Shown here one piece after another: positions 1-55,385 of a stretch of DNA of 64,000 nucleotides. The translations under genes and the position numbers were made by a program. The DNA is from Paramecium tetraurelia. Lineage: Eukaryota. Under the pieces are notes generated by a model. It saw only the letters and a list, made by a program, of their open reading frames with translations. It did no database searches and was not told where the DNA came from. Each line of letters opens with the position of its first letter. Within the stretch, counting starts at the first letter, position 1. The stretch is from the NCBI GenBank assembly GCA_000165425.1, contig CT868274.1:1-64000 (forward strand), in the 5' to 3' direction.

Positions 1-53
1 GCACTGGAGGACTATGTAAACAGGGACCTTACCCGATAACGAGCACATGATTA

Positions 54-83
54 CCCCAAAACCCAAACCCCAAACCCAAACCC
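54..83 (+). repeat. Telomeric repeat tract (Paramecium-type C4A2/C3A3-like), chromosome end
   Basis: ccccaaaacccaaaccccaaacccaaaccc at the very start of the scaffold, C-rich strand 5', preceded by apparent vector/low-quality sequence. Confidence 0.85.
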
Positions 84-32781: not shown

Positions 32782-35482
32782 ATGCTCGAAAATAATAAGA
32801 ATGCATTAATGAGTTGTAGTGCATTTAAAGAGAGTGGTGTGTTGAAGGGATGGGGAGAAAGGCTTTTAATATATGATCTGATATAATAGGTAAGGGCTTG
32901 ATATATAAAGAGATACTCAGGTATATTGACGTAAAGGGTTAAACATAAAAGCAGTTGTTGATTCAAAATTATATTATCCATCCAGTTGCATTTCATCAAG
33001 GGAAGTGGGCAATAAAGTTCAAAACTCAACAAGAGATAGAACCCAAAGTGGCTAGATTTGGTTGGAATAATCAATCTGAGGCGTTATAATGGTACGACTT
33101 TTTTAACGGGAAATACTTGGCTATATAAATAAAAAAGGAGAATTAGGAGAAAAAATTGCAGGAGTGGGATTAATTTATGCCAGAATCCGAAAGAGTGATA
33201 AATCAAGGGGTTCCTTCAATGGCCATAAAGCCAAGTTAGGTATCTCGAATGAGATAGATGATACCATTATTGCCTTAATTTTTATAAGTAAATACCGTAA
33301 TAAAAATAAGAATGACATTGAAATAATCTTAGAGAACACGCATGAAAATTTGCAAGGATTTTCGGATATCCATTCATTTAAAATTCTTTTTTAATCTCAA
33401 AACAAATAACTTTACCAAGATCCAAATGATTAATTGCATATGAGATTCTTTTTAAAATCTGAAATGCCTCCAGCAAGGATTTTCGATGTAAATATGATAA
33501 TTTTCCATATAATAGGAATTGTCAATACACACATTTGTGGACAATTGGAGTCCCTAAGTATCGATCTATTAAATATATCCAACAAAAAAAGATTGTGCAA
33601 TAATCTTCACAGAATTCAATATGGAGTAAAAGCAATTACATAACAACAAACTCAAATAAAACAAACCTAGAAGTTTAAAGGATATTGAATCTGAAGTCTT
33701 TTAAAACGATTCGTTTTCCAAATAACCGAAATCACACTTGTCTAATTAAAATGAAAAAATCAGATTGATTTACACCCAAAAACATTTTCAAATAGATGAA
33801 AATGCATATTGTATTATGAAAAAATATATTGGCAATGAGATACATCATAATCAGATAGACAAGGACAAAGTTGAAGGCACAGATGAATACAAAATCACTA
33901 GGTCCTGTGTGCTCATCTAGGCTAAATAAGAAGATAAGTTTAAGACCTAAATCATTGAAGACATTTATTTAGAATGCGAAGACAGAGATAAAGGAGAAGA
34001 AGTTATGAAAAGGTTTCTCCTCAATTTAGAAAACATAGATAATCAAATACTTGAAGCAGATCATTATATTAAGTAATAAACAGAACATGTACTTATCAAG
34101 AATGAAGACGACATTGATAATTTGTAGATTTCCTTTATTCAATTGGTACCTGAAGTGCCAAGAATTACTTCGGAATAGCATCAGCAATAATCTATTCAAG
34201 AATATAAAGAAATTCTAGATTTGGTTTCTACGGGATAATTTATATAAAAATCAATCTCAAGACAATTTAATTAAAATATACTTCACGGATTAGACAAATT
34301 TTTGGAAACAACTAAGGAAGAAGGTCATTTCTTACTTACTAAATATTATGAGGTAGATCCTAAAAAAGGAGGGTTGATATACACAAATAAGAAATTAATC
34401 AGTGATTAAAGAAGCGTATTATTGGATATAATCAAAAGAATGGGATCAAATTTATTGAGTGGAAAATCCTTAATGTCTGTTTCCTTGCCAATTTAAGTAT
34501 TCGAAGCAAGATCATTTTTGGAGAGGATGGCCAGAGGTCAAGGACATGCTCCTGTTTTTCTTGAAAAAGCTGCTCAAACTACAGATGTTTTAGAATAATT
34601 AAAACTCACAGTCTCATTTCATTTGGCAAGTTTCATGATGGGTGTTCAATAAGAAAAACCATTTAACCCAATCATTGGAGAAACCTTTGAGGGTCGCATT
34701 AAAGGGTGCCCTATTTATCTAGAGTAAACTTCTCATCATCCTCCCATTTCAAATTATATCATGCATGGAAGAGGGTATAAATTGTTTGGGGCATTCTGTC
34801 CCATGGTCAATATGGGAACTAATAGTTTGGCTGGTGAATAATAAGGCCATTCATAAATACATTTCTAAAACACTAATCTCAAATTCTACTATATGGCCTA
34901 ACCATTTATGCTTTATGGAGTATTATTAGGTTAGAGAAGTGTAAATTGTCATAAAAGAAGTTATTGTTTTTAACCTGACCATTAGTTATTAGTTGAAATC
35001 ACTTTTAACCCTAAAGATAAAAATGCTGGGTTTTTTAGTTCCTCATCATAAAAGATCGACTAGTTTATTGGGAAAATCTGTAAGGTCACACCAGAATGCA
35101 TTTAAAAATGTTTAAAAGCTCACAAAACTAATTCAGGCATAAAAATAAAAATTTAACCTTAAGAAATTTTAGACACATATAACATTAATATTAAAGGCAG
35201 ATGGACATCATTTTTACAATTTGACAATGTTACTTATTGGGATATTGAAATTCATAGGTAGATTGTTTTGATTTAATTTATTTTAGACCTTACATTCTCG
35301 AGTTGGAATCAAGTCCCTTACCTTCTGATTGTATCTATAGATTAGATTTACTATATATGAAGATGAAAGATAATTCGAAGGGTTAAGATGTAAAGGAGTA
35401 GATGGAAGTGGATCAAAGAAAAGATAAACAACTTAGAGAGAAATTTGGGAATAAGAATAAAAAGAAAAAGAAATCAAGTTGA
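32782..35482 (+). CDS. Oxysterol-binding protein-related protein with an N-terminal PH domain and a START-like middle domain
   Basis: PH: KESGVLKGWGERLL...EALQWYDFF; ORD signatures EKPFNPIIGETFEG, EQTSHHPPIS, LPSDCIYRLD; several short introns; TGA 35480-35482. Confidence 0.9.
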
Positions 35483-35717: not shown

Positions 35718-37384
35718 ATGTACAAGATGAGAGTGAGAGTTCTTCAATCCATTAAGAGATTGTTTATTCCAAAAAAATACTGTTAATAAAACTTCAAAGT
35801 TCCACCCTTTACTGCAGGGATAACAGTTTTGTCTACGACTCTTATTTTGCATCTAAAATAAAAATCTGAAAAGAATGAAATACAAAACAATCAATAGAAT
35901 AATAACCCTCCTGAAAGTTACCCTCCTGAAATACCTAATTCTGAAAATAACCCTTCTTAAAAGATAGATTCATAGAATAAGGATTCATAAGCTAAAGAAG
36001 CTTAAAAAAATAATCATAATAATTCAACAACCTTACCTGATAACCATTTTTTTGCTTATATTTAGTATTACTTTGTTCAGCTTCATTCTCTTTATCCTCA
36101 GAATACGCTTTCCATGCCATATTCTACTAAGAAAACGCCTCTTTGGATTAAAGATTTCCTGATAGATAAAATTCTGTTCTATCCTACTTATATAGCTAAG
36201 GAAGATTAAGAATATCGTACATAGTAACCAGAATAACCCCCAAAACCACCCCCATAATCATCATAATCAGCTTAGTCTGCATAATCCCCATAATCAGCTT
36301 AACCAACATAACCATCATAGCCTGCATAATCCCCATAACTAGCATAACCAGTAGAGCCTGCATAATCCCCATAACTAGCATAACCATTATAGCCTGCATA
36401 ATCCCCATAATCAGCTTAACCATCATAACCAGTATAGCCTGCATAATCCCCATAACCAGCATAACCAGCATAACCAGCATAGCCTGCATAACCTGCATAA
36501 TCCCCATAACCAGCATAACCAGCATAACCAGCATAACCCCCAAAACCAGCAGATCCATCTTAACAACCATAACCAAAAGAAATAGAATTAATAAAATATC
36601 TTCTTGATAATTCATCGAAAAAAAGGAATGTAGATGAAAATTTAAAATACTATTTAATAGGAACATTAGTGAAAGGGGAATTTTAGAATTATTATTCATT
36701 GAAAAAATTAGAAGTAAAAAACAAACTATTGAGATATTGTAAAAAAATGATACATGTAAGAGGTGATGGAAATTGTTTTTACACTTCTTTTGGATATTAA
36801 CTATTAAGATTAGTGATTTATTAATATTCTGATTAAGAATTTAGAGTATTTCTCAATCAAAATTTCACAATACCATTCAAAATGTAGCTTAAAAATGAAA
36901 TAATAGGAAGTGAAGAGCAAGGATCGATTTTATTATAGAATTATAAAGAAAGAATACTCTATTTAAGAAATCTTGAACAAAATTATCCACAACATGTTGA
37001 TTATTCATAATAATTGATGATACATTTTAGAGCACATGAACAGTAAAATGATTAAGATGGTTATTTATAGCCATTGACCGTACTATTTCTAAGAAATTTA
37101 TGCATGTATCTTGTCGAAAATTGCGAAGAGGGATAAAATGTTTTTGATAAGGAGCAATTATTAAAATGGGAGGAGGAATGTAATAGTAATGAACAGGTGG
37201 TTGCAATATTAGCAAAGCATTTTTAAATGTATTAAATTAGTAATATTGTAGACATGTACAATTATTATATTTTGAAAAAGAAGATTTCAAACTATTTGAA
37301 TACTCAACTGAGTATTAAAATTAAAATAGGACAATCATCTTGCTTATTTAACCTGGACATTACAATATTGGTCTTAAAAATTGA
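35718..37384 (+). CDS. Otubain-like OTU deubiquitinase (peptidase C65-like), paralog 1, with a His/Asn/Gln repeat arm
   Basis: HVRGDGNCFYTSFGYQ (Cys 36774-36776), WEEECNSNE, LLIQPGHYNIGLKN*; intron 37229-37251. Confidence 0.88.
36240..36560 (+). repeat. Coding tandem repeat SLHNPHNQ(H/L)N(Q/H)
   Basis: Repeated agcctgcataatccccataac(t/c)agcataacc built on a 9-bp cataaccag-like unit. Confidence 0.9.
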
Positions 37385-37423
37385 TATTTTAAATTAATAT
37401 AAATAATAATTCAAAGATATAAA

Positions 37424-38477
37424 ATGGAATTTAGGGACTGAAATACGAAGATCCCCTCCTCCGATCCCAAAACATACTCTTAAGCTGTAGAAAGCACTGA
37501 AATGAATGAATCTTTGCAAATATTTTTCCTGAAATATCATAAGATGTGGAACTAATATCAATATTATGAATATCTCCTTTATGATAGATTTTAATAGGGA
37601 ATCCGATTCAATAATTTAAAGACTAATATGCTTAATAAGGTAGAAAGATTAATTTAATTTACGAAATGATATAATTTAAAACAATTACTTAGTGAATTAA
37701 TAGTATTCGCAAATTGGAGTAGATAAAGAATAAAAGCGGCATCAAATTAGTTATAACTTAAATAATAGCCATAGCAGCAATCTGCTAACAAAGTAAATGA
37801 TTTTGTTAATAAAGGAAATTAACTTATTTAAATAATATGCTGAGTAATATTTTATTATCTAAGCAAACTCAACCTTAAGTAAATAAGCCTCAAGAATTAG
37901 ATCCAAATAAACCTAATGATTATTAAGAGAGATAAACTAATCAGAGGAATAGGGTATGCTATATTAATAACTAAAGAAGCAGATAACTTTAATTTTTATT
38001 CTATTAAAATGTAAGCCTGAAAACGATGGAGAATAAGGTTGTTATTTTAGTTGACTATTTGAACAATATTTATCAGGCGATTCAGTATAAAATAATCGTG
38101 ATAAAGGCTTCGAATAGCATCAGAGTTACAGAAGCCGGTTCATCACATTTAAAATATTTCATCCTTAGGAACAATTCATTGATTGATAAAGAAAGAAAAT
38201 ATGATCATTGTTGAATGTTAGAATAGCAAAGGATGTTAATGAATTTTTTATGATAAAATTAATAGAAGGGAGGAAAGTATGTTAAATAAAGAGAATTGAT
38301 ATTCCTATTAGACTTGAATTGGAGAAAGCAGAGTATATGAGAGTTCATTGAATATACAAGTGATAATGGTAATGAAATGACAATGTTTGAGTTTTTGGAA
38401 AAAGATTAATGAGCTGTCAATTCTAGGAGAAAGAATAATTTAATGATGGACTATGACTATATGATGCGGAATTATGA
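37424..38477 (+). CDS. Hypothetical Gln-rich protein (exon structure unresolved)
   Basis: Open table-6 frame ~37430-37950 (LKYEDPLLRSQNILQAVESTEMNESLQIFFLKYHKMW..); start and 3' exons uncertain. Confidence 0.4.
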
Positions 38478-38567
38478 GTATTATTATAAATTGTGTACAC
38501 AAATACTATCTTTATCATGATTTAAAGGATTTAATTTAAAATCTAAAAATTCTTAACTTTTTTGTGT

Positions 38568-41500
38568 ATGGCTTAGAAGACAGATTTTACTAATGGTAAT
38601 GACTTGAATTTAATTAATAGTTGTCGAAAGACCCAACTTCCCTGAAGAGGAAGTCAGAATCCTAAAATATTGGGAATAGATCAATGCTTTTCATAAATAA
38701 TTGGAATTGACAAAAGATTTTCCACGATTTACATTTTATGATGGACCACCTTTTGCTACTGGATTACCTCATTATGGCCATATGTGTGCTGGTACTATTA
38801 AAGTATAATTTCGCAACAAATTTAGGATGTAGTATGCAGGTATTTTGCAATGAATGGGAGATATGTGGAGAGAAGATTCGGATGGGATTGTCATGGATTG
38901 CCAGTTGAACATGAAATTGATAAAACTCTTAAAATTTAACACAGAGGTGATATTTTAAAGGTTTTAAATGAGTATTATATGTTTAGATGGGTATTGATAA
39001 ATACAACCATGAATGCAGATCAATAGTCATGAGATATGCATCTGAATGGAGAAGAATAATAGGAAGAACAGGTAGATGGATCGATTTTGATAATGATTAC
39101 AAAACATTGGATACACCCTTTATGGAAAGTGTTTGGTGGGTCTTCAAACAAATGTGGGAGAAAGGCTTAGTATATAGAGGATGCAAAGTCATGCCATATT
39201 CTAATGGGTGTTCCACAGTTCTAAGCAACTTCGAGACCTAATAGAATTATAAGAATGTGTGGGATCCTGCTATTGTTGTGACTTTCCCATTGGTTAAAGA
39301 CGAGACGACCAAATTCGTTGCTTGGACAACAACTCCATGGACATTGCCTAGTAATTTAGCCTTAGCTGTTCATCCAGATTTAGTTTATGTGAAATTGCTT
39401 GATAAAGCATCTAATACTCATTACATCTTAGCAGAGTCAAGAATTGTTGAGTTGTATACTGATGCTAAGTTGTATGAGGTTGTGGAGAAATTCAAAGGTT
39501 CTGAATTAGTTGGAACTGAATACGTTCCATTATTCAATTACTTTTTGGAAAGAAAAGAATAAGGATGCTATAGAGTTTTGGCTGCCAATTTCGTTACTAG
39601 TGATGATGGTACTGGTATAGTACATTGTGCTCCTGGTTTTGGTGATGACGATTACAAAGCATGTTTAAAGGCTGGCATCATTGTTCCATCCGATCCTTTG
39701 GTACCCATTGATTCTAGTGGAAGATTCTTGGAGTCAGTCAAAGATTTCTCAGGAATGTAAGTCAAGGATGCAGATAAGGAAATTAGAAAGCTACTTAAAA
39801 CTAATGGAAGATTGATTAAGGATGGATAAGTTCAACATAATTATCCTTATTGTTGGAGATCTTAAACTCCATTAATATATAAGGCTGTTAACTGTTGGTT
39901 TATTAAGGTTACATCAATTAAGGATAAACTTGTTGTTAACAATAAGAAGGCTAGATGGGTACCATAATCAATTCAAGATGGAAGATTTAACAATTGGTTA
40001 GATGATGCCTAAGATTGGTGTTTCAGTAGAAATAGATTCTGGGGTAATCCTATTCCAATTTGGGTCAGTGACGATTTTGAAGAATCAGTATGCATTGGAT
40101 CTATTGAAGAATTGAGGTAACTTTCTGGAGTTGAAAATATCACAGATCTCCATAGAGAATACATTGATCATATTACAATTCCAAGTAAATAAGGAAAGGG
40201 TGTATTGAGAAGAATTGAAGAAGTCTTTGATTGTTGGTTTGAGAGTGGATCTATGCCTTTTGCTTAATAACATTATCCATTTGAAAGAAAAGAGTTATTC
40301 GAAACTATCTTCCCAGCTGACTTCATTGCTGAAGGATTAGATTAAACAAGAGGGTGGTTCTATACCTTGAATGTTATTGCAACAGCTTTACGTGATGATA
40401 CACCTTACAAGAATTTAATTGTCAATGGAATTGTGTTGAATGACAAAGGTGAAAAGATGTCAAAAAGTAAAAAGAACTATCCAGATCCTGAAATTGAAAT
40501 CATTAATCAATTCGGAGCTGATGCTATGAGATTGTACCTCATTAATAGTGGATTGGTTAAGGCTCAATCATTGAATTTCAGCAAAGATGGAGTTTAAGAA
40601 GTCATTAAGAACGTATTTTTACCATGGTACAATGCTTATAGATTTTTGATTCAAAATTTACAAAGGTATGAAAGTGTAATTGGCAAATTTGAATTTGATG
40701 AAAATGCAATAACGAAAGGTGACAACATTATGGATAAGTGGATTGTATCAAGCAGTCAAACTTTGGTTGAATTTGTTAGAACTGAGATGGAAGCTTACAG
40801 ACTCTACACAATTGTGCCTAGATTGATTAGCTATTTAGATATATTGACTAACTGGTATGTTAGATTGAATAGAAGTAGAATCAAGGGAGATTAAGGAAAT
40901 CAAGAATGGGTTGTTAGTTTAAATGTGCTTTTTGATGTGCTCTTAAAAATCACTCTTTTGATGTCACCATATGTCCCATTCATTACAGAATCATTCTATC
41001 AAAATCTCAAGAAATGCATTCCTTAAGGTAAAAATTATCAAGAATCAATTCATTTCCTTCAAATCCCTGAAGCGAAAAAGGAATTGATTGATCCTAAAAT
41101 TGAATCTCAAGTTGAAAAAATGCAAATAGTTGTTGAATCTGCTAGAAAATTAAGAGAAGCACATAAACTAAGTCTAAAATAACCAGTTAATAGTTTGACA
41201 ATCTTGGCAACAGATGAATAGTTACTTTAAAGTGTTCAATTCTTATCTAAATACATCGAAGAAGAAATCAATACACCTTCTGTCTTAGTTGAAAAGAATA
41301 TTGATCAATACATTCAACTCAAGGCTGAACCAGACAATAAGATTTGTGGATAAGAACTGAAAGATAAATTTGGACCAGATCTAATTTAATAAGTTCGTAA
41401 TTTCTCTCAAGAATAGATCCGTACACTCAAAACTGATGGTAAATTGTAACTCAAAGTCAAAGTAAAGAAAGAGAAGAAGGTTGAAGAATAAGTGTAATAA

Positions 41501-42155
41501 TAACCAGATCCTAAAGCTAAAAAGGGTAAAAAGAATGTGGAATATATTGAAGTAGAATTGGATTGCGAATTATTATTAAAGCATGTTAAAATAACTGATT
41601 AATTCAATACTGAAAAACATAAATAGTTGTTGTTTGCCACTGAAGATGGATTCTCTATTATTATTGATCCATCGTAAACTCAAGAACTCAAAAATCTTGG
41701 ATTGGCAAGAGAATTCACAAATAGAATTTAAAAATTAAGAAAGAAGCTTGGCTTATAATAAGAGGATAAAATCCTTATCTTCTATTAATTTGAAGCTGAA
41801 TCTGAATTATCAAATGCAGTTCAATCTGGTATTACATGGATCAGAAATTAAATTAAGAAACCAATATTCTCATCTGATTAAAAACATTAATTCTTACATG
41901 TAATTGGCAAAGAGGATACTGATGTAGATAACCATAAATTTAGTATTGTGATCACTAAAAATTCTCCTGTCTTTAATAAATAAAAATTGTTGGTATGAAT
42001 TTATTTTAATTTCTTAGGAATCTTTTAATGAAAAGGAGGTTGATACCATCATAAGAACATTAGTAGTCTTACCAAATTTACAATAAAACATAGAATTTAC
42101 ATTGGACGGGAAAAAAGTTACCCTGGGCCCTGAACATTATACAATATCATAATGA
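38568..42155 (+). CDS. IARS1: Isoleucyl-tRNA synthetase, cytosolic type
   Basis: [16 protein letters not shown] (HIGH), [34 protein letters not shown]; introns 38596-38620, 38803-38825, 38961-38986, 41993-42017; TGA 42153-42155. Confidence 0.97.
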
Positions 42156-42724
42156 GTATGATAAATCTAAAATTTATTAATATTCGAATTAAGAATTAAT
42201 ATAATTTGTTAATAGAATTAAAATAACTATCTCTGTGTGGATAAATCTTATGGGCCGACTCTGAAGTATTTTTTATTTTATCTGAGTTCTTTCCTTGATA
42301 AATAAGGAAAATCTACTATAACCCATTTATTCTAACCTTATGCTGTTATGCTCACATTACTGATAAATAGGAACAATAAAATTTTGTTATTAATTTAATA
42401 GAAAAAGCTCCTAGAATGGCAGATGTTGACACAATGCAGCTTATTTTTGTGGACTTGAAAATAGCGAAACTTGAATAATCCCCATCAAAAATCTATAAAA
42501 GTAAGTTTGGCTTTATAATCAATTTATGATTCTGTATTAGCCTAGCAAATAAGAATTCAATGAATTAGAAAAAAAGTATTTTAGGATTATTTCTATAAAG
42601 TTAAAAAATGTAAACATAAAATACTTTTGATTTGAAGTAATCAATTATTATTGAATAAAATATATTGTTGTTAAAATTTAATAATTAATAAAATTTTATT
42701 TGTTTTAACTCTTACAACAAATAA

Positions 42725-44954
42725 ATGTCTCAAAATAAAGATGATAAGCATCATTATATGAAAGAAACTAAAAGTCACTCATATAGAGTAGAGGCAATTC
42801 AAAGAGATCTCAAAAACAAATCCAATTCTACTATAAATTACTCAAAAAATACATAGAAAGCCATTTCGTAGAAAAAGATAAATATCAAGGAAATTTCACT
42901 ATAATAAAAAGGATACTACAACAAATAATCATAGAAATCATAACCATAAAAATAAGAAAGGCAAAATCATCACAAACAACAATAGTAAAGAGACTAGCAA
43001 AATCATTTAAAAGTTACTCCAAAGAATTATTTTTCCAAAGATACAAAAATTAACCAAAATAATTAATAGGAAAAGTATAAATCCCAAAATCAGAGAGTCT
43101 AAAACCTTAATAAGAATCGATACAATTTATCTAATAAGACTTAAATAAAGTAAATAGATTAAGGAAAATAATGGCTACAAAAATCACTACCTTTAAAGCT
43201 AGAATATAAAAACCTAAAATATCAAAAGAATAAGTCATAAATTTGTGGTAAAAATTCTTAAGCTAAAAAAACTACTAACTTTTTGTTAATTAAAAAAAAG
43301 AAATAGACTCAAGAATAATCTTTGATGACACCTGTAAAATAAAAATAACACATTTAAAGGGACAGTTATGCCAAATAATAAACTAATAAATAACCTAATA
43401 ATATCAATAATTAAAATGAAAAATCTACATAAAAGAAATAAAAGTAAGTCTACATATAAAAATATATTTAGGAGAATCGACCAATTCATTAGAACAAAGA
43501 AGAGTAAAATGAAATGTTAATAATAGAATAGTCAAATTAATAATCCTCAAATGCAAAATTATAGAATAAACAATTAAAAGCAGAATAAGGAAATTAATAG
43601 CTAAATAAAATAGGACTGTTAAATAAATCACCATTAAATGCATAAAAAAATAAATCACCAATAAATGCATAATCGAATAAATCACCATTAAATGCATAAT
43701 CTAATAAATCACCATTAAATTCATAATCAAATAAATCACCATTAAATGCTTAATCGAATAAATAACCAATGAATTCATAATCGAATAAATCACCATTAGA
43801 TGCATAAAAAAATAAATCACCATTAAATGCATAATCTAAGAAATCACCATTAAACTCATAATCTCCATTCAATGCATAATCTAATAAACAACCAATAAAT
43901 GCATATACAAATACATAACCAAAGAATAAAGATGAAGCAGATTAACAAAAAATAAAAGTAGAATAACGAAATTTATAACCAATAACAAATGAATAATCAA
44001 CTTAATAACCCATATAAGCAGAGTAATAAGATGATTAATTTCTAGATATAGAGTAGATAAATAAATAAGCATTAAATACCGAGAAGCAAAATATGCAATC
44101 ACTAAATGTAGAATTGAATAAATCATTATAAGCAATTAAAATTGTTTTCGATTAGAAAAGACTAGAAAAAAGTGTGGAAATATGTAAATTATTAATTTAA
44201 ATGTCATCTGGGCAAAGGACTGTAGAACAAAATTACAGCTACTATCTCTAATAATATGAAGATATATAAGGATTATTTTCTCATTATTCTATAAAACATT
44301 TGGAGGTTAAAACCAATCTAAAAAAATATTGTCAGAAAATATTATATGTGCGTGGAGATGGAAATTGTTTTTATACTGCGTTTGGCTATTAATTTTTGCG
44401 TTTGGTATTGATAAGTTATAATGATACTTAATTTAATGAATTTTTAAATTTTGCAATATAAATTAAATTTAAGATTTATTACAAAGACTTTAAGATAGCT
44501 GATGATAAAATAGAATAACTATTAAATGAAGAATTCCTTTATAAACTCTAAGAAATTAGGAATATCGAAAATTAGCAAGATAGAATAGACTTACTGTATA
44601 AAATATATAGAGAATTTGATATTTCAGATGATGGAAATGGTTGTTTTTATTTTTTATCTACTCTATTTTTTAGAAACCTTAGTAATTAACTTTAAGAACA
44701 TAGTGAAATGAAAGCGTATGTTGAAGATAGGGAAAATCTACTCAAATGGGAGACTGAGTGTAATAATAATGAAATTGTCGTTGCAACTCTAGCTCAACAA
44801 TTAAAAATGTATTACATTAAGCTTATTTAGAAATATCAAATTATTATTTTTTAATGAGGGATAATTTGTATTCAGAGAATATGAGTAACATGAAAAAGAC
44901 GAAATGATATTACTAATTTAGCCAGGCCATTACAATATAGGATTAAAAAATTGA
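42725..44954 (+). CDS. Otubain-like OTU deubiquitinase, paralog 2, with a long Q/N/K-rich arm and NKSPLNAQS repeats
   Basis: YVRGDGNCFYTAFGYQ (Cys 44366-44368), WETECNNNE, LLIQPGHYNIGLKN*; intron 44809-44830. Confidence 0.88.
43622..43905 (+). repeat. 27-bp coding tandem repeat (about 10 units) encoding NKSPLNAQS
   Basis: aataaatcaccattaaatgcataa(tcg/tct/aaa) repeated head-to-tail. Confidence 0.92.
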
Positions 44955-45451
44955 TAAATACTTATAAAATTAATTCAATAAATTCAAATTGCACTAATTT
45001 CTTCTAAAATAATACACATTCAATATAAATTTTATAAAGTAAGATATTCTTTTCTCTTTCTTCAAACTCTTAAATACTAATTTTATGATAGGAATTATCA
45101 CACCGCCATTTTGATGATTGATTGAATAAGTAATAAGAATTTTGATTACGAATGATTAAAACTAATTCTTTAACCAATATGAACTCAAACCTGTAATCGA
45201 TTTGCTCCTACTACTAGTATTTACTTTTGATAATTCTATTGCTTATAAAAATGATGTGAGATTATTTCAATATTTTGGGGCTCATTCTTTAATCAAAATG
45301 AAATTTCTACATTATATTACTATTTTTTTTAGTCATTGCCCATTAAATCCAGATATTAAGTCTGATAAATTCTTTCTCTTATGCGATTTGATCAAAGAAA
45401 TTAAGATCTCAGATATTGAGCAAATAATCATTAATTATAATATTTTATTTA

Positions 45452-46875
45452 ATGGCTTAAATTACCAAAGAGGCTGAGAAAACTTATTATGAATAAGACG
45501 AAGAAGAAACTCAATAAAAAGAGATAGCAGATGAACCTGAATATGCTTTTGAAGACAGAAGATCAAAGAGAGAATATCGACAGACTAGAATCAAAGATAA
45601 AGAAGACAGAGCTACAGTAGAATAATGTTTGGATCCAAGAACAAGAGTTATTTTGATGAAAATGATTAATAATAAGTTCTTAAAGGAAATAAATGGATGT
45701 ATATCAACTGGTAAAGAGGCTAATGTTTATCATGGATGGGATTTTAATAATCTGGAATATGCCATTAAGGTTTATAAGACTTCAATTCTGGTATTTAAAG
45801 ATAGAGATAAATACGTATCTGGTGAATTTCGTTTTAGAAATGGTCATTGCAAATCAAACCCAAGAAAAATGGTTCGATTATGGGCAGAAAAAGAGTTGAG
45901 AAATTATAAGAGAATATTTCAGTCGGCAATCCCATGTCCAGAGCCTATTTTGGTTAAAAGCAATATTATAGTAATGAGATTTATTGGTGATGATATGACT
46001 CCAGCTCCAAGATTGAAGGATGCAACAGACGTTCTTTATGAAGATGCTTACCTTCAGGTTGTAAAGTGCATGAGGATACTATACCAAGATTGTAAACTAA
46101 TCCATGGAGATTTGAGCGAATACAATCTATTATATTATAAGAATAAAGTCTATTTTATAGATGTATCCCAAAGTATGGAAAGTGATCATCATAGTGCATC
46201 TGAGTTTTTGAAAAGGGATATATTTAATATCAATCAATATTTCAAGAAGAAGGTATATCTAATATAATATGAGTTTAGGATATCATGACATTTACTCTGA
46301 GATAATTGTACAAATTTATTACTGATTCTCATCTTTAAAATATCAATTAAGAAATCGAGAGAATGTAAGAGGAAAGAGAATAAATCAATGAAGATTTGGA
46401 GGAGGAGTAAGATAAAGTTTTTGTTGGAGCTATATAACCAAAGAATTTGAGTGATTTACCATAAAAAATTATTGAATCCGAATTGAATGCTTTTAAGAAA
46501 GGTGGAGAGAGTATAGGCAAGACAATAGCAGATTTCTAGAATGCAAATCTAGAACTTTAAAAATTGAATGAGGGAAATGAATTGGATTAAAATGAAGATT
46601 CAAATGAAGACAATGAGGAGTCAGATAATGATGATTAAGAGGGTAATTCAGATTCTTCATCTGATGTATCTTTATTGAGTGATGATGACGATCAAGAAGA
46701 GGAATCTGAAAATTAAAATGAGGATGGTGAAAAAAAGAAGAAGGGTGGATTATGTAAATATGATGGACTTTCAAAAAAAGAAAGAAAATAAAAAGTGAAA
46801 GAAGAAAAAAGAGAGAAAAGAAAAACTAAACTTCCTAAAAATATTAAAAAAATACTTACAAAAAAATAAAGATGA
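45452..46875 (+). CDS. RIO1: RIO1 atypical Ser/Thr kinase
   Basis: DRATVEQCLDPRTR, STGKEANVY, AIKVYKTSILVFKDRDKY, LIHGDLSEYN, IDVSQS; acidic then Lys-rich C-terminus; TGA 46873-46875. Confidence 0.96.
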
Positions 46876-46971
46876 TCTTATTAAACAATATTTTATCATT
46901 TCTTTTAGGAATAAAATTTATTTATTTATTTTAAAATTGAACCTAATTTCATTAAAAGTTCATATCAAAAT

Positions 46972-47709
46972 ATGCAAAATATCAATTAAATATCTGCTCG
47001 TCTCTAATTAAACATTTCTAAATAACTTTCAGCAAGAACAGATCAAACTGATAGCCAATTCTTAAATACTTCTAATACTTAAACACTTTTGAAATAGATT
47101 AACTTAATTAAAAAGAGTGATAAAAAGAATAAAGCACTTAAGATCATACCAGATAAGTAATCATTAAAATTTCAACATTTAACTGAACCTAAATAAATTA
47201 ATATTAATTAGCTAATTTAGAAAGAACACACATATGAAGAAGAAAAGAAGAATTCTGCTGTTATTTCCAATGTTGGCAGTTAAACATGGAGAATAGAGAC
47301 ATAGATGAGATAAAGCTTAAACTTTTAGGATTTACACAAGTTGGATGAATCAATTGCAATAGACATTCTAAATAGGTAAATTGGAAAGACTGAAACTAAT
47401 TTTTATGAATATATACCAAAAACTTCAAGGAAAACAAAAAGTCAATCAGTTAAATAGAAAAATTTAATTAATTTATCTGGAACTCCATCTAAGTTTAAAA
47501 AAACTAATAAATTAAATAACACTGTCAATGCCTTTAAATCAACCAATAAAGATTAAATTTATTATAAATTACCTGTTTCAAACGTAGGAGTTCCTATTAT
47601 TAAAACATAAAGAATCAAGAGCTAGCCTCGTTATCATCACCCTTTCTCAACAATGAACAATTTCAATTATACTAGATTAAATAAATCTTTGTGGGTCTCT
47701 GATTTTTGA
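46972..47709 (+). CDS. Hypothetical protein (~245 aa)
   Basis: Open table-6 frame MQNINQISARL...SLWVSDF*. Confidence 0.65.
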
Positions 47710-47880
47710 ATTTACTTTGAACATATCTATTTTTAGCAATTGAATATATTTCTATATAAACTATTACTATTGAATTCATAAATATTGGATAGCACAATAA
47801 AATCTTAATTTCAAATGCATTATTTATATAAAATAATTTTGGTAATAAGAAAATTACAAATGTATATATTATTTATTTTT

Positions 47881-49537
47881 TCAAATATTATCTTCATTCT
47901 CTATATTCGGTACTCCAAGATTATAATGTCCTGGTTTTAGCAATAAAATAATTTTTCTTTTAGCTTCTTTATTATATTCCATCATTTTAAATTACTCTTT
48001 ATCAAAGTAGAATACAACAATATTACTAATTTAATTATAGTTGAATACATCTACAATTATTAAGCCAATATCAAAATTACGATTTCGTTGGAATTGCATT
48101 CTGATTCCCAAGGTAAAAGGGTATCTTTATCCGTGAAATTATCTTTATATTCGCTTTATTAGATAAAATGTAAGCTTAAATTTCTAAAAAAGATAGTTGA
48201 TAAAGCATAAAAATATCCATCAGCTTATTGATCTTCTTACTTTTCATAAGCACTAAATTGTTTAAATAATTCATCTTATCTCATTTCTGTATTTTCTAAG
48301 TTTCTAATACAATTTAATCTTTTAATGAATTCTTCTCTAAATTATGTTTCTATTTTTTCATCATCTATTTTAGTGCTTTGATAATAAATTCTAAATCTCA
48401 TTTTCTTTATGACAGAATTCAAAAACTCATCGTATTAATTCTAATCATAGTGAACAATTAATAATGATAAGTATCCAAATCCGAAAGATGAATAAAAACA
48501 ATTACCATCTCCTCTTACTTATCGAAATCCTTTCATATATTAACAGATTGTCTTTTTGTACTCTAATTTCAGATTATAATACTTTGCTAAATCACTCTAA
48601 CTTTACATTTAATGTATGAAAGGCTAATACTATCCTGGAACATGTCTTCTTCTTGTAGTTTAAGAATAAATATCCTCTATAGTATTTTTTATTATCTCTC
48701 CATTCTATTCATTAGAACTTGATTGACGTTAAGTTATATTTGACTAATTGGTTACATTATTATCATTACTAGGGCATTATTTTTATTAATAATTCTCTTT
48801 TATTTATTTTAATAGATTTTAGATATCCATTTCAACTTTCTCTTTCCAACTATTATTTTATTCATCTTTCAACTTAATTTACAAAATTGATTCTTTCAAT
48901 TCTCTATTCTATTCCTCTTTTATAGATTTCAATAGATTTTAGATATCGATTTCAATTTTATCTTTCCAAATATTATTTTATTCCTCTTTCTACTTAAGTT
49001 CTTTAAGGTTGGATTCTTAAATCACTTTTAGTTGATTATTAACACGTTATTCAATTTCGGTTATCAATGAATTGTATTATTATTATTATTTCTAAATAGG
49101 GTTCTATTATTGAGATTCTTCTATTTGATCATTGGATTGAATATCTAATTTTGATTCATTTTTTGTTAGCTATTTATTAAATTTTTCCTCTATTTCATTA
49201 AGTCTTTATTAGATAAAATTGTACTTAATTTCAAAACCAATAATTTTGTCAAAGAATTATTTTAATCTCCTAAAAATTTCTTTTCTATCTCTATTTTCCA
49301 ACTCGAAATTGTTTCTCTCTTTACTCTTTGTTACTTCGTCTGAATGATGTTACATATCTAATAAAAATAAAATTAATAAATTTAGAATTAATATTATATG
49401 AATAAGTGGCAGTCATCATTGAATCCATTGAGTAATTTAGAACTATTATATGATTTTAGAATATGAACTTATTTGACAATATTTTCAAATAATTTATAAA
49501 CTTGATTGAAAAATATCTACTATTGCTAAGCTTCCAT
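47881..49537 (-). CDS. Otubain-like OTU deubiquitinase, paralog 3, with a coiled-coil arm (start codon and first exon uncertain)
   Basis: QVRGDGNCFYSSFGFG (Cys 48498-48500), WESECNSNE, LLLKPGHYNLG..ENEDNI*; intron 48026-48048. Confidence 0.85.
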
Positions 49538-49796: not shown

Positions 49797-51337
49797 TCAA
49801 GCTATGTTAAAAACTGCTTCCATTATAGCTAAATAGAACCCTTCGATTCCATCTAGATTGCCTAAGTACTTATACATGATTTCAAAGTGTGTGTAAGGAT
49901 TTTACAGTGAAGACTTACAAAGCACATAGTGAAAAATTGGTATCATTTCGTCTGTGCTTATGATTGAAGGCTGTTTAGTATACTAATTGTAATAGTCGAT
50001 GATGGCAGAGTAGATACTTCTGAAACAAGCGACCAATTATTTAACTTTATGATGAGGAGTTTATCGAAATTAAATTAATTTTAGAGCTTCAATGGCATTT
50101 TGAAATGGGGATTATAAGAAAAATGTTCCTTATAAAAGTTTCGCTTAAGGTCTAGAAGGTAATTGAATAGTATCAACATCTTCAATAATGAGTGTCTCAA
50201 AAGTATCTTTCTTCATAATCTATTAGCTTTAACTCCCTGTATTTGCTTTTGAAGATAGTTTACTCTGTATATACTCTCTAGTTGTGCAATCCAGACAATA
50301 TTTAATTGAAATTCCAAAATCAGCTAATGTTTTATCCTTTAAAAATTGCAATTTCTTATGTATTTTCTCATTTTCATCTATTTATTCTAGCTTTTTGATT
50401 TAGTAAACATGTGAGGCCACTTGATCATTGAATATCATGTTGGATACTAAACATTAAAGAGAGGAGGTGTTCAAGAAATGACATTTGTTTAGTGACGCAA
50501 ATAAATTCAAATCATAGTAATGAATTAAGATCTAAAATTTATATATACAGAATTAAATACCTAAACAAATGAATCTCGAAACATAACAATAAATTTATCC
50601 AATTCCTGACTGCAGTTAGGCAGTTAAGTTTGTCTGAAAGTTTAAAATATTTCCAACAAACAACCATTCAAAGTTGACAGCTATTAAAGCACTTACCTTT
50701 CAAACTCTTGCAAAGAGGGATCATTCTCCTATATCAGAGTCGTTACATAGAATTCTTTAAAAGGATCCAGAGTTTTCTTGGATCTCTTAATATTTTCAAA
50801 CTCTGTTGCAAATAAGGATTCTGTTGTGCTCAAAGTAGCAATTTCCTCGTGTTATGGTTTAACAATTGAATATAATTGCATAAAATTTTGTTTATGAAGA
50901 TGATCTGATCTAACATTAATATTAAATCCTAATTTTTAAACTTCCTTTTCTACTCCAACATGCCATTACATCTATGGATAATTAAAGAATAGTACCATTT
51001 GCATTTTGTAAATGTCCTATATGTTCTCCGATTAAAATGAATTGTGGTTCCCCATTAATAAATATATAATTTTTAATACAATAACTAAACATCTTTCTGC
51101 CTTATTGATAATAATGCTTATCTCAATATATTTATCATAACTAGATGAAGTACATAGCCTTATTAACTAGTTTTGATCCTATTCTCCCAATCTAAGATCA
51201 TAAAAAAATGAAATTGGATGTAATTCTATAATGAGTAAAATACTATTTCTAAGAACATTAAAACGGAGATAGAATCCAAAATTGGATAATTTCGTATACT
51301 AACAATCAAAAGGATACATTTTAAAAATCAATTTCAT
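49797..51337 (-). CDS. VPS9-domain protein (Rab5-family GEF-like)
   Basis: C-terminus RTPHHKVK..ISTDEMIPIFHYVLCKSSLQNPYTHFEIMYKYLGNLDGIEGFYLAIMEAVFNIA* matches the VPS9 pattern. Confidence 0.82.
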
Positions 51338-51983
51338 TAATATATCTTTTATATATTTTAATGTATTTATTGAATGATTAATTATTAAGTGATTTATATT
51401 GATAAACTAATATGATAAATGCAAATTTTCAAATTCCAATAAATTCTTGGTAACTAATAAAATTAGTTATCAAGAATCATGTCCCTTTTAATTACTGTTT
51501 CATGTTATTGAATTAATTTATCACTTGATTTTACTAAGTGTCAGATAAATCAAACAGTATTTTTTAGTTAATTTACCAATAATTAGTGACTTCAATCTAA
51601 TTTATGAGATATAAACTTAACATAGAGATCCTCCTTGATGATGTCTCTCTCTACAGTTTCATTTAGTGTAATATACTCTTTCATTATAAACTTTATGATA
51701 ATATTCAATTTTATAATTTGCAAATCGTGATACTCATTACTTTCTTAGTATTATTGCTTCATAAAAGAATGGTAATATTCAGAGAATTAATCTTATTGAT
51801 ATTATAGAGAAGGAATGATAGTTTTTTTAATTTATAGTGGATTATTAATTTTTCTTTATTATTACCCATACAAATGCATTAATACTGGAACAAGTTATTT
51901 TATAAATATTGTATACAAACTAGTTTGTTAAAAATCTAATTATTATATATAGAATATTAATGTTCAATAACATTAAGCGGAAT

Positions 51984-53700: not shown

Positions 53701-55385
53701 TCATTCGGATATCGAGCAATCTGCCCCACTATATCCAGACCAACAATAGCATGTGGTTCCTCTGCAAGTACCAACTCCACTGCAAGAATTTGGACAAATT
53801 CTCTGAGTACTGCAAAAATGCTTTATATCTGGGCAAGTGACTTTGGCACTGTAATAGGAGTATCTCACATTTATTACCTAATTTAAAAAATAAATAAGTA
53901 CTTGTCCTGATGTAACACATTGATAACTTTTGTCAGAAATGGAGAAAGTTACAACATTATTTTAACAAGTTGCTTTAAAGCAATCAGAAACCAATCCTTA
54001 GAATCCTATTTTAGTAGGCAAAGTAGTAAAGAAACACTTACCATCGTTTCCGTAATATCCTCCATACTAAGCTAATTGACCGATAAAATCAGAGTTATAT
54101 CTACAATCGGAGTTACCGTAGGCTCTCCAATATCCACAGCCGTCAGTTAATGCATCACCTGTTGAACAAGAGGCAATGCCTGTGAAATCAGAGGAACATC
54201 CTTCACTACCTGGAGTACAGAATTCTCTCAATCCTTGAACACATTTTCCTTAGGCAATGGGACAGCCTTCATCCTTACCCCAATTGAATGGCTCAGATTG
54301 CTTATGATCCATATTATACCAACCAGTGGATTCGAGTAAATTGAAAGTGAATAGAGTGATCACAGAATCTGGGAATTCAGATCCGGTCATTGCCTCATTA
54401 CCAAAGGTAGTTCTTTCCCAATGACTGCCTGCTGTTCCTTATCCTCCGTTGTTCTCTAATGGAGCTCCCCAGGCAGATTAACAACCAAAGTGACTCTTGA
54501 CTGCATTTACTACTTTAGGCAATATGATCCAATCTCTTCCTCCTTATGTCTTAACTATTTAATTGACTCCTAATTTCTACATTGTATCAGGATCGATGTA
54601 ATATGGGAATAAACCACTACTGAATCCTAGGACGTGAGTCATTTCGTGAATGGTAGTTTAAATCCATTTGAACCATTTGCCTTCGCTTAGCTTACTGAAA
54701 TCTAGTTAATTAAAATATTTGAGGTTGAATTCCAAAGTACCAGCTGTGGGTCTTAATGTGGTTGGATCCAATCTGCAAGCTCCTGCTCTTGCAACCCAAC
54801 TATCTTATTATGTTGTGGCTGTGACAAATAGAACTAAGTCAACATTACTTACTCCATTTTTGTATGATCTTGGGATTGCAACTGAGCCACATTATCCACT
54901 CAAAAATAATTTGGATGATGGATACACTTTTATGGCGGCTTTTAAAAATCCAGTTGCTGCTTTCACCAATTTATTCTCAATGAAATCAGCTTATTGTTGT
55001 GATGCCTAAATTTGATACATCAATACTATACTTAAAATGATGAATAATCAGTCTTGATTCTGATGGTTTGCCAATTTCCTTATTTGTGATTCTTAATCAG
55101 CATTTGCTCATGGGACAACCTAGCCTCGAATGGAATTTCAGCTGGACGTTCTGGCTCTTCGATTTCGATCTCCTTTATGAAGTGGCCGTGGTTGCAAATA
55201 TGCACATCTTCCTATTCCAACTTGGCATGATGAATATTTGTGTTATGTGCATGATTTCCCTTGAGATGGTTTGTTACGGTGGCATTATTATTGTCATTCT
55301 TCAAATAATAATAAGTAGATCCACCAGCAAGCAAGACTATAGTTGCAACTGAGGCAACCTTAATTAAAGTTGACAAGAATATCAT
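53701..55385 (-). CDS. Leishmanolysin/GP63-like zinc metalloprotease (M8) with a C-terminal EGF-like domain
   Basis: TIHEMTHVLGFSS (HExxH), APLENNGGQGTAGSHWERTTFGNEAMTG, DGCG; HICNH pro-region; ends CYCWSGYSGADCSISE*. Confidence 0.95.

What the first reader, a model, noticed from the sequence alone, without database searches (positions are those of the whole stretch)
35718..49537. Three otubain-like OTU deubiquitinases in 14 kb with one catalytic core and three unrelated repetitive N-terminal arms
Seen: three genes (35718-37384 +, 42725-44954 +, 47881-~49537 -) each have VRGDGNCFY, WExECNxNE and PGHYN, plus a 22-23 nt intron at the same codon position and phase. They are interleaved with IleRS and RIO1 rather than strictly tandem, and one is inverted. 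Their N-termini are unrelated: HNP/HNQ repeats, NKSPLNAQS repeats, and a duplicated coiled-coil block. Established: GDGNC/GHY is the OTU catalytic Cys/His signature, and canonical otubains have short N-termini. Inference: a locally expanded DUB family in which an active core acquires new low-complexity targeting or condensate-forming arms. The standard-code ORF track misses all three genes.
Basis: partly seen in the sequence, partly recalled or inferred. Interest (0 to 1): 0.8.

Follow-up and report, generated by a model that had tools for sequence, protein, structure and literature searches.

The report
Paramecium otubain family with variable arms
These are three real ubiquitin-removing enzyme genes from an old, genome-wide Paramecium family of at least 22 genes whose fast-changing front ends, often membrane anchors, probably place the same enzyme at different sites in the cell.

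Summary
The three genes are real otubain-type (PF10275) deubiquitinase genes of Paramecium tetraurelia. Each keeps a Cys-His-Asn triad, and the gene 3 model has an otubain fold. Three corrections. (1) Gene 1's arm is Pro/Gln/Ala (PAQ/SPQ) repeats behind a likely membrane anchor; HNP/HNQ is the wrong frame. (2) Gene 3 starts at 49355. (3) The expansion is not local. The genome holds at least 23 such domains in 22 genes on 11 contigs, 22 of 23 with the same intron. The cores are 39-44% identical, each gene has its own orthologues, and duplicated regions carry sister clusters. Monophyly was rejected with orthologues (p 0.024) but not without (p 0.14). The repeat arrays are recent and missing from orthologues. 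Twelve of 22 genes have a predicted N-terminal membrane anchor. Best reading: a fast-evolving family of differently targeted deubiquitinases. Expression and activity are untested; seven paper searches showed no description.

The parts
35718..37384 (+). Gene 1: 547-aa otubain-type OTU protein (exons 35718-37228 and 37252-37384); basic N-terminus, weak hydrophobic anchor, Pro/Gln/Ala arm, C-terminal core
   Evidence: Pfam C65 partial matches per exon; orthologues P0001 (67% core) and P0040 (56%)
35799..35852 (+). Gene 1 residues 28-45: moderately hydrophobic segment between basic flanks, a putative signal anchor (inferred)
   Evidence: mean hydropathy 1.28, reached by 2 of 1000 arm shuffles; orthologues 1.96 (28 of 1000) and 1.93 (0 of 1000)
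36253..36575 (+). Gene 1 tandem array (9/45-bp periods) coding PAQ/SPQ in the gene's frame, not HNP/HNQ; absent from both orthologues
36759..36776 (+). Gene 1 RGDGNC loop, catalytic Cys codon 36774-36776
37229..37251 (+). Gene 1 intron, 23 nt, phase 2, family-wide position
37352..37366 (+). Gene 1 PGHYN: catalytic His and third-position Asn
38590..41990 (+). Neighbour: isoleucyl-tRNA synthetase (approximate ends), the synteny anchor; sister copies on C125 and C40 each have OTU genes beside them
42725..44954 (+). Gene 2: 735-aa otubain-type OTU protein (exons 42725-44808 and 44831-44954); about 440-aa low-confidence, largely non-helical arm, no membrane segment
   Evidence: P0090; C65 37.8 bits, cut-off 24.3
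42752..42775 (+). Gene 2 N-terminal HYMxxT motif, kept in 4 of 4 full-length orthologous sequences (including gene 2) while the rest of the arm drifts
   Evidence: a PHYMxxT pattern is not enriched in the genome (2 hits vs 1 control)
43621..43882 (+). Gene 2 27-bp array, about ten NKSPLNAQS units; absent as an array from three orthologues
44351..44368 (+). Gene 2 RGDGNC loop, Cys codon 44366-44368
44809..44830 (+). Gene 2 intron, 22 nt, phase 2
44922..44936 (+). Gene 2 PGHYN
45450..46875 (+). Neighbour: RIO1 kinase (approximate ends), with no close paralogue in the genome
47881..49355 (-). Gene 3: 483-aa otubain-type OTU protein (= XP_001444806.1, GSPATT00012894001); exons 49355-48049 and 48025-47881; long helical arm
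   Evidence: C65 66.8 bits
48786..48998 (-). Gene 3 duplicated coiled-coil block (Trp130 and Trp170 copies); doubled also in the P. octaurelia orthologue, single in those of P. pentaurelia and P. sonneborni
48498..48515 (-). Gene 3 RGDGNC loop, Cys286
48026..48048 (-). Gene 3 intron, 23 nt, phase 2
47920..47934 (-). Gene 3 PGHYN (His469, Asn471)
49800..51400 (-). Neighbour: VPS9-domain gene (approximate ends), second synteny anchor; its C40 sister also has an OTU gene beside it

Best explanation
Three long-diverged members of a Paramecium-wide subfamily of otubain-type deubiquitinases. SHOWN: each has the otubain catalytic domain with Cys, His and Asn in the OTUB2 arrangement, plus a subfamily-specific helix ahead of it. 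INFERRED from the family: the Cys attacks the bond at ubiquitin's C-terminus and removes ubiquitin or trims chains; linkage preference cannot be read from sequence. INFERRED: the arm says where the enzyme works. Gene 1 is held in an organelle membrane by an N-terminal anchor, with the enzyme in the cytosol on a flexible Pro/Gln tether. Gene 2 is soluble, docks through a short conserved N-terminal motif and carries a long disordered linker. Gene 3 uses a coiled coil to dimerise or bind a scaffold. The repeat arrays are recent slippage expansions that mainly change linker length. The cluster arose by old local duplication, before the intermediate whole-genome duplication, and has since been reshaped by loss and inversion.
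For: A family profile hits OTUB1/OTUB2 structures at E 5e-18 to 4e-17. The gene 3 model has block pLDDT 84-98 over residues 221-480; Foldseek best hit OTUB1, E 1e-11; VIA Z 19.2, rmsd 3.3, 216 aligned. R-D-N and W invariant, Cys and His at least 90% conserved in 45 sequences. The OTUB2 triad is Cys51/His224/Asn226 (PMC4295869, passages). dN/dS between the three cores is 0.23-0.47, with dS near saturation. Orthologues with intact catalytic motifs occur in 2 (gene 1), 4 (gene 2) and 4 (gene 3) other species. 25 of 71 family proteins have a hydrophobic 18-mer in their first 70 residues against 1.5% of shuffles; the C-terminal flank is net positive in 23 of 26, which points the enzyme to the cytosol by the positive-inside rule (recalled). 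Two further P. tetraurelia genes start MG-Cys, a lipid-anchor-like start. Arrays are absent from orthologues. Synteny with C125 and C40.
Against: No expression, activity or localisation data. Gene 1's own anchor is weak (1.28, below my 1.6 threshold) and its arm shows no significant similarity to its orthologues' arms (z 2.0 and 0.3). Genes 2 and 3 have no anchor, so targeting there rests on one short motif and a predicted helix. No Pfam family matched gene 1's first 70 residues. Gene 1's own product did not appear in any of the protein searches. Otubain-fold proteins can be inactive: 2 of 23 family domains have lost Cys and His. The age relative to the duplications is inferred from identity levels, and the deep tree is largely unresolved.
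Confidence: 0.62

Rival explanations
1. Active but largely redundant duplicates whose arms are neutral, relaxed low-complexity spacers; the family size reflects Paramecium's general retention of duplicates.
For: Arm lengths vary from 87 to 528 aa among gene 1 orthologues and the arrays are species-specific. Recent C54 duplicates have dN/dS 0.6-1.7. 2 of 23 domains are frameshifted in this assembly. The C125 sister region lacks copies at the gene 1 and gene 3 positions.
Against: Arm classes are kept across species: hydrophobic anchor in 3 of 3 gene 1 sequences, HYMxxT in 4 of 4 gene 2 sequences, RLxQFFxK-type coiled coil in 4 of 4 gene 3 sequences inspected. Anchors are far above shuffle expectation.
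Confidence: 0.2
2. A host-microbe conflict family: tethered deubiquitinases that tune ubiquitin marks on food vacuoles, symbiont-containing compartments or mitochondria, evolving fast under pressure from bacteria.
For: Cores diverge fast: positional pair C125/C40 dN 0.46 against 0.185 for IleRS across the same duplication; orthologue cores 56-83% identical. The repertoire includes double-OTU, degenerate-plus-active OTU and catalytically dead members. A membrane-anchored bacterial otubain, SnOTU, ties as best structural match (Z 19.3; PMC10643670 passages).
Against: Only 2 of 6 recent pairs have dN/dS at or above 1, on few changes; no site-level selection test was possible. SnOTU is 16% identical, tied with human OTUB1, and anchored at its C-terminus. 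No subtelomeric bias is evident from the contig positions.
Confidence: 0.12
3. One reading: a recent local expansion in which one active core gained new condensate-forming low-complexity arms.
For: Three copies in 14 kb; gene 2's arm is predicted disordered (383 of 735 residues below pLDDT 50); monophyly is not rejected on P. tetraurelia rows alone (p 0.143).
Against: Cores 39-44% identical; separate orthologue sets; p-AU 0.024 with orthologues; gene 1's arm is Pro/Gln/Ala in frame; gene 3's arm is helical; Gln-rich sequence is common in this genetic code (PMC10942620 passages).
Confidence: 0.04
4. Non-catalytic or silent genes (pseudo-enzymes or decaying copies).
For: Expression is untested; dead and frameshifted members exist elsewhere in the family.
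Against: Open frames of 483-735 codons in a roughly 25% GC region, intact triads, canonical introns, intact orthologues, dN/dS below 0.5.
Confidence: 0.02

Closest known systems
Otubains OTUB1/OTUB2 (Pfam Peptidase_C65, PF10275)
   Same: Fold, GDGNCFY cysteine loop, helical insert, LLxxPGHY strand; Cys-His-Asn triad as in OTUB2.
   Different: About 20-24% identity; 220-480-residue arms instead of short tails; a conserved extra helix and SxxRxV segment before the core; WExECNxNE where otubains read CKESD/TECDH; at least 22 genes. The genome also holds a separate conventional otubain pair (C22, C682) with different intron positions, plus one on C27.
SnOTU of Simkania negevensis (PDB 8cmr)
   Same: Otubain-subfamily fold, Z 19.3, rmsd 3.2, 210 aligned; has a predicted transmembrane segment (PMC10643670, passages).
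   Different: 16% identity, profile E only 0.1; bacterial; anchor follows the catalytic domain; M1 specificity not tested here. No evidence of direct descent.
OTULIN / FAM105A (OTULINL)
   Same: OTU fold with N-terminal extension; Z 14.2.
   Different: Weaker match than otubains, 13-16% identity; different Pfam family (Peptidase_C101).
Membrane-tethered deubiquitinases USP30, USP19 and Chlamydia Cdu1 (recalled, no call)
   Same: Working logic: anchor, flexible linker, cytosolic catalytic domain acting on one organelle surface.
   Different: Unrelated catalytic families (USP, CE clan); analogy only.

Membership tests
Otubain (PF10275) | Profile match above the curated cut-off (24.3 bits) | tested here: met
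   Spliced gene 2 37.8 bits and gene 3 66.8 bits. Gene 1 was scanned only exon by exon (20.3 and 16.1 bits, each below cut-off); its orthologues score 40.5 and 38.5.
Otubain (PF10275) | Catalytic Cys in D-x-x-C loop, His, and Asp/Asn two residues after His | tested here: met
   GDGNC and GHYN in 3 of 3 genes; aligned to OTUB2 and OTUB1; OTUB2 triad from PMC4295869 passages.
Otubain (PF10275) | Otubain fold with large helical lobe | tested here: met
   Gene 3 model: Foldseek ranks 1-10 are otubains; VIA Z 18.6-19.3 for otubains and SnOTU, 14.2 for the next family. Gene 2 model has the same element order but was not searched; gene 1 was not modelled.
Otubain (PF10275) | Cleaves ubiquitin conjugates | not testable with these tools
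   Needs probe and di-ubiquitin assays.
OTUB1-type (K48-specific, E2-inhibiting) | N-terminal ubiquitin-binding helix and E2-binding surface | tested here: inconclusive
   A helix precedes the core (residues 209-232) and the structural alignment to OTUB1 complexes starts at model residue 228, but no contact residues were compared.
Orthologue of conventional eukaryotic otubain | Groups with the organism's conventional otubain and shares its short N-terminus and introns | tested here: not met
   C22/C682 form a separate long branch with introns at other positions; long-branch caution applies.
Recent tandem array | Copies form one clade with high identity | tested here: not met
   39-44% identity; p-AU 0.024 with orthologues (58 rows, 10 long-branch rows left out); p-AU 0.143 without.
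Signal-anchored membrane protein (gene 1) | N-terminal transmembrane helix with basic flanks | tested here: inconclusive
   Hydropathy 1.28 in gene 1, 1.96 and 1.93 in orthologues; shuffles 2, 28 and 0 of 1000. No dedicated topology predictor was available.

The most novel reading that the evidence does not exclude
Paramecium has turned the normally single, soluble otubain into a repertoire of 20 or more organelle-tethered deubiquitinases (transmembrane, lipid-anchored, coiled-coil, double-domain and dead decoy forms) that evolve fast because they control ubiquitin marks on vacuoles and organelles contested by ingested or symbiotic bacteria: a host-side counterpart of the membrane-anchored OTU effectors of intracellular bacteria.
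Probability: 0.15. Interest if true: 0.7.

Novelty: new variant of a known kind. Interest (0 to 1): 0.38.

Why it matters
Otubains are known as a few soluble, conserved enzymes. A genus-wide set with membrane anchors and exchangeable arms would give a tractable system for asking how deubiquitinases are addressed to organelles in a phagotrophic cell, and a panel of diverged otubain cores that may have new chain preferences (SnOTU shows this fold can switch specificity, PMC10643670 passages). The three-gene cluster itself is ordinary: gene families often expand in this genome (recalled), and databases already label these proteins as OTU-domain or ubiquitinyl hydrolases.

Tried and rejected
Expression: the run search listed no holder on record as RNA and no reads were laid, so expression and splicing remain untested. 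HNP/HNQ frame: rejected; it stops at 36672, and the only listed GT..AG candidate of the right length class to return to the coding frame (36714) lies after that stop. Gene 3 start near 49537: rejected. Chimeric origin of gene 1's arm from another gene: protein and DNA searches of the genome found only itself. HYMxxT as a common motif in this genome: PHYMxxT pattern 2 hits against 1 control. Arm domains: no Pfam match above cut-off outside the core. Synteny linking C291 to the C28, C54, C81, C3 or C546 clusters: 0 non-OTU hits in the stretches fetched; C54-C81 and C3-C546 are paralogous to each other. Relatives outside Paramecium: all named hits down to E 1e-14 were Paramecium (one unnamed 132-aa fragment among them); below that come ordinary otubains, and two Tetrahymena proteins (E 2e-5, 9e-5) with short N-termini and C-terminal extensions. 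This word-seeded search does not show absence. The atlas listed a ciliate C65 cluster of 115 members at score 0.80, a lead only. Locus C47:21626 (E 5e-4, no motif) was dropped before counting. Earlier-findings look-ups returned nothing. Literature: 0 papers hold both 'Paramecium' and 'otubain'; listings showed no title on this family (listings only, 20 of 84 rows seen). No supplements were read.
Full report
Setting. The window is C291:1-64000 of a 72-Mb genome in 697 contigs, about 25% GC, read with table 6. The gene 3 product is identical to a P. tetraurelia record whose contig has C291's length, 507,435.

Checking the observation. The three motif sets occur exactly three times each in the window. 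Removing one phase-2 intron of 23, 22 or 23 nt joins the Cys half to the His half, giving 547, 735 and 483 aa. Spliced genes 2 and 3 pass the PF10275 cut-off; gene 1 was scanned only by exon (20.3 and 16.1 bits) and its orthologues pass. A profile of 18 family members hits OTUB1 and OTUB2 structures at E about 1e-17. The gene 3 model is confident from residue 221 to 480 and matches otubains best. The residue two after His is Asn, as in OTUB2 (PMC4295869, passages).

Gene 1's array reads PAQ/SPQ in the frame that runs from the ATG into the core. The HNP/HNQ frame stops at 36672 and uses CAG for 13 of 18 Gln codons, whereas CAG is 6.3% of Gln codons in this species (PMC10942620, passages). Pro-rich linkers before the core recur in other members. 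Gene 3 starts at 49355.

The family is genome-wide. Searching with the gene 2 core gave 25 matches of 26 candidates, and PF10275 gave 28 of 30. After dropping one motif-less locus (C47), these resolve to 23 domains in 22 genes on 11 contigs, a lower bound, plus three separate otubains on C22, C682 and C27. 22 of 23 domains share the intron. 2 of 23 lack Cys and His, 2 of 23 are frameshifted in this assembly, and one gene has two domains in one frame. Relatives are named from four other aurelia species and P. bursaria.

History of the cluster. The window is collinear with C125 (most neighbours 77-99% identical) and C40 (41-79%); I read these as the recent and intermediate whole-genome duplications (duplication history recalled). 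C125 keeps one OTU gene beside IleRS, and C40 keeps three between IleRS and the VPS9 gene. Gene 2 groups with C40:132731 (100/97), and these with the C125 and C40:138884 genes (97). Genes 1 and 3 lie outside that group in an unresolved fan. The one-clade test gave p 0.143 on 26 P. tetraurelia rows and p 0.024 on 58 rows with orthologues, ten long-branch rows left out. So the clustering is real but old.

What the arms are. They are unrelated to each other. The arrays are young: PAQ repeats are absent from 2 of 2 gene 1 orthologues and the NKSPLNAQS array from 3 of 3 gene 2 orthologues; gene 3's block is doubled only in P. tetraurelia and P. octaurelia among four inspected. What persists is the kind of N-terminus: a hydrophobic segment (gene 1), HYMxxT (gene 2), a coiled coil (gene 3). 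Across the family, 25 of 71 proteins have a hydrophobic 18-mer within 70 residues, against 1.5% of shuffles (rows are related, so not independent). In P. tetraurelia I count 10 of 22 genes with a hydrophobic N-terminal segment (six scoring at least 1.6, three judged by eye, gene 1 weak) and 2 starting MG-Cys. Gene 2's arm is mostly low-confidence and non-helical; gene 3's is helical.

Rate. Cores are under purifying selection over long times (dN/dS 0.23-0.47, dS near saturation) but move fast: dN 0.46 for the C125/C40 OTU pair against 0.185 for IleRS across the same duplication; six recent C54 pairs give 0.62-1.71. Relaxed and positive selection cannot be separated with these data.

Mechanism. 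Shown: fold, triad, gene structure, family size, synteny, arm turnover. Inferred: ubiquitin isopeptidase activity (about 85%), and arms as address labels with the repeats as spacers (about 60% overall). Speculative: a role in conflict with bacteria. SnOTU, a membrane-anchored bacterial otubain (PMC10643670, passages), ties with OTUB1 as the best structural match, but at 16% identity this shows shared fold only.

Novelty. The proteins are auto-annotated as OTU-domain proteins; seven searches showed no description of the family in the held library, which lacks most subscription papers. Verdict: a new variant of a known kind, real, of moderate interest. The interest lies in the genome-wide anchored family rather than in this trio. 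Expression, activity and location remain open.

Noticed in passing
window 53-83: Telomere-like C4A2/C3A3 repeats preceded by 52 unrelated bases, so the contig starts at a chromosome end and the cluster lies 36-49 kb from it (repeat identity recalled).
   Followed up: no
G000:C54:170600-172400 (L032): One reading frame with two nearly identical OTU domains (92% identical, dN/dS 1.7), behind a Pro/Glu repeat linker; its hydrophobic N-terminus lies in another frame.
   Followed up: partly
G000:C3:149488 (L040) and C546:1646 (L042): A duplicated pair of catalytically dead family members (Cys replaced, His lost) still under purifying selection (dN/dS 0.11) and present in P. sonneborni (P0066): candidate pseudo-deubiquitinases.
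   Followed up: partly
G000:C81:149200-150900 (L027): Member with an MG-Cys start, a degenerate first OTU-like domain and an intact second one, and a different intron; similar layout in P0062 (P. sonneborni) and P0098 (P. bursaria).
   Followed up: partly
G000:C40:130577 and 132731 (L035): Both copies carry frameshifts in this assembly while P. octaurelia orthologues (P0091, P0019) are intact: recent pseudogenes or assembly errors.
   Followed up: partly
window 36040-36200: Gene 1 has a second, aromatic-rich stretch (residues about 110-160) absent from its orthologues and unique in the genome.
   Followed up: partly
window 45450-46875: RIO1 has no close paralogue (next hit 25% identical), unlike IleRS, which keeps two sisters.
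   Followed up: no
window 53701-55047 (-): Leishmanolysin-like M8 metalloprotease with a C-terminal EGF-like region.
   Followed up: no
window 33498-35450 (+): Oxysterol-binding protein gene directly upstream of gene 1.
   Followed up: no
P0120, P0124: Tetrahymena otubains with a long Cys-rich C-terminal extension, a different architecture from this family.
   Followed up: no
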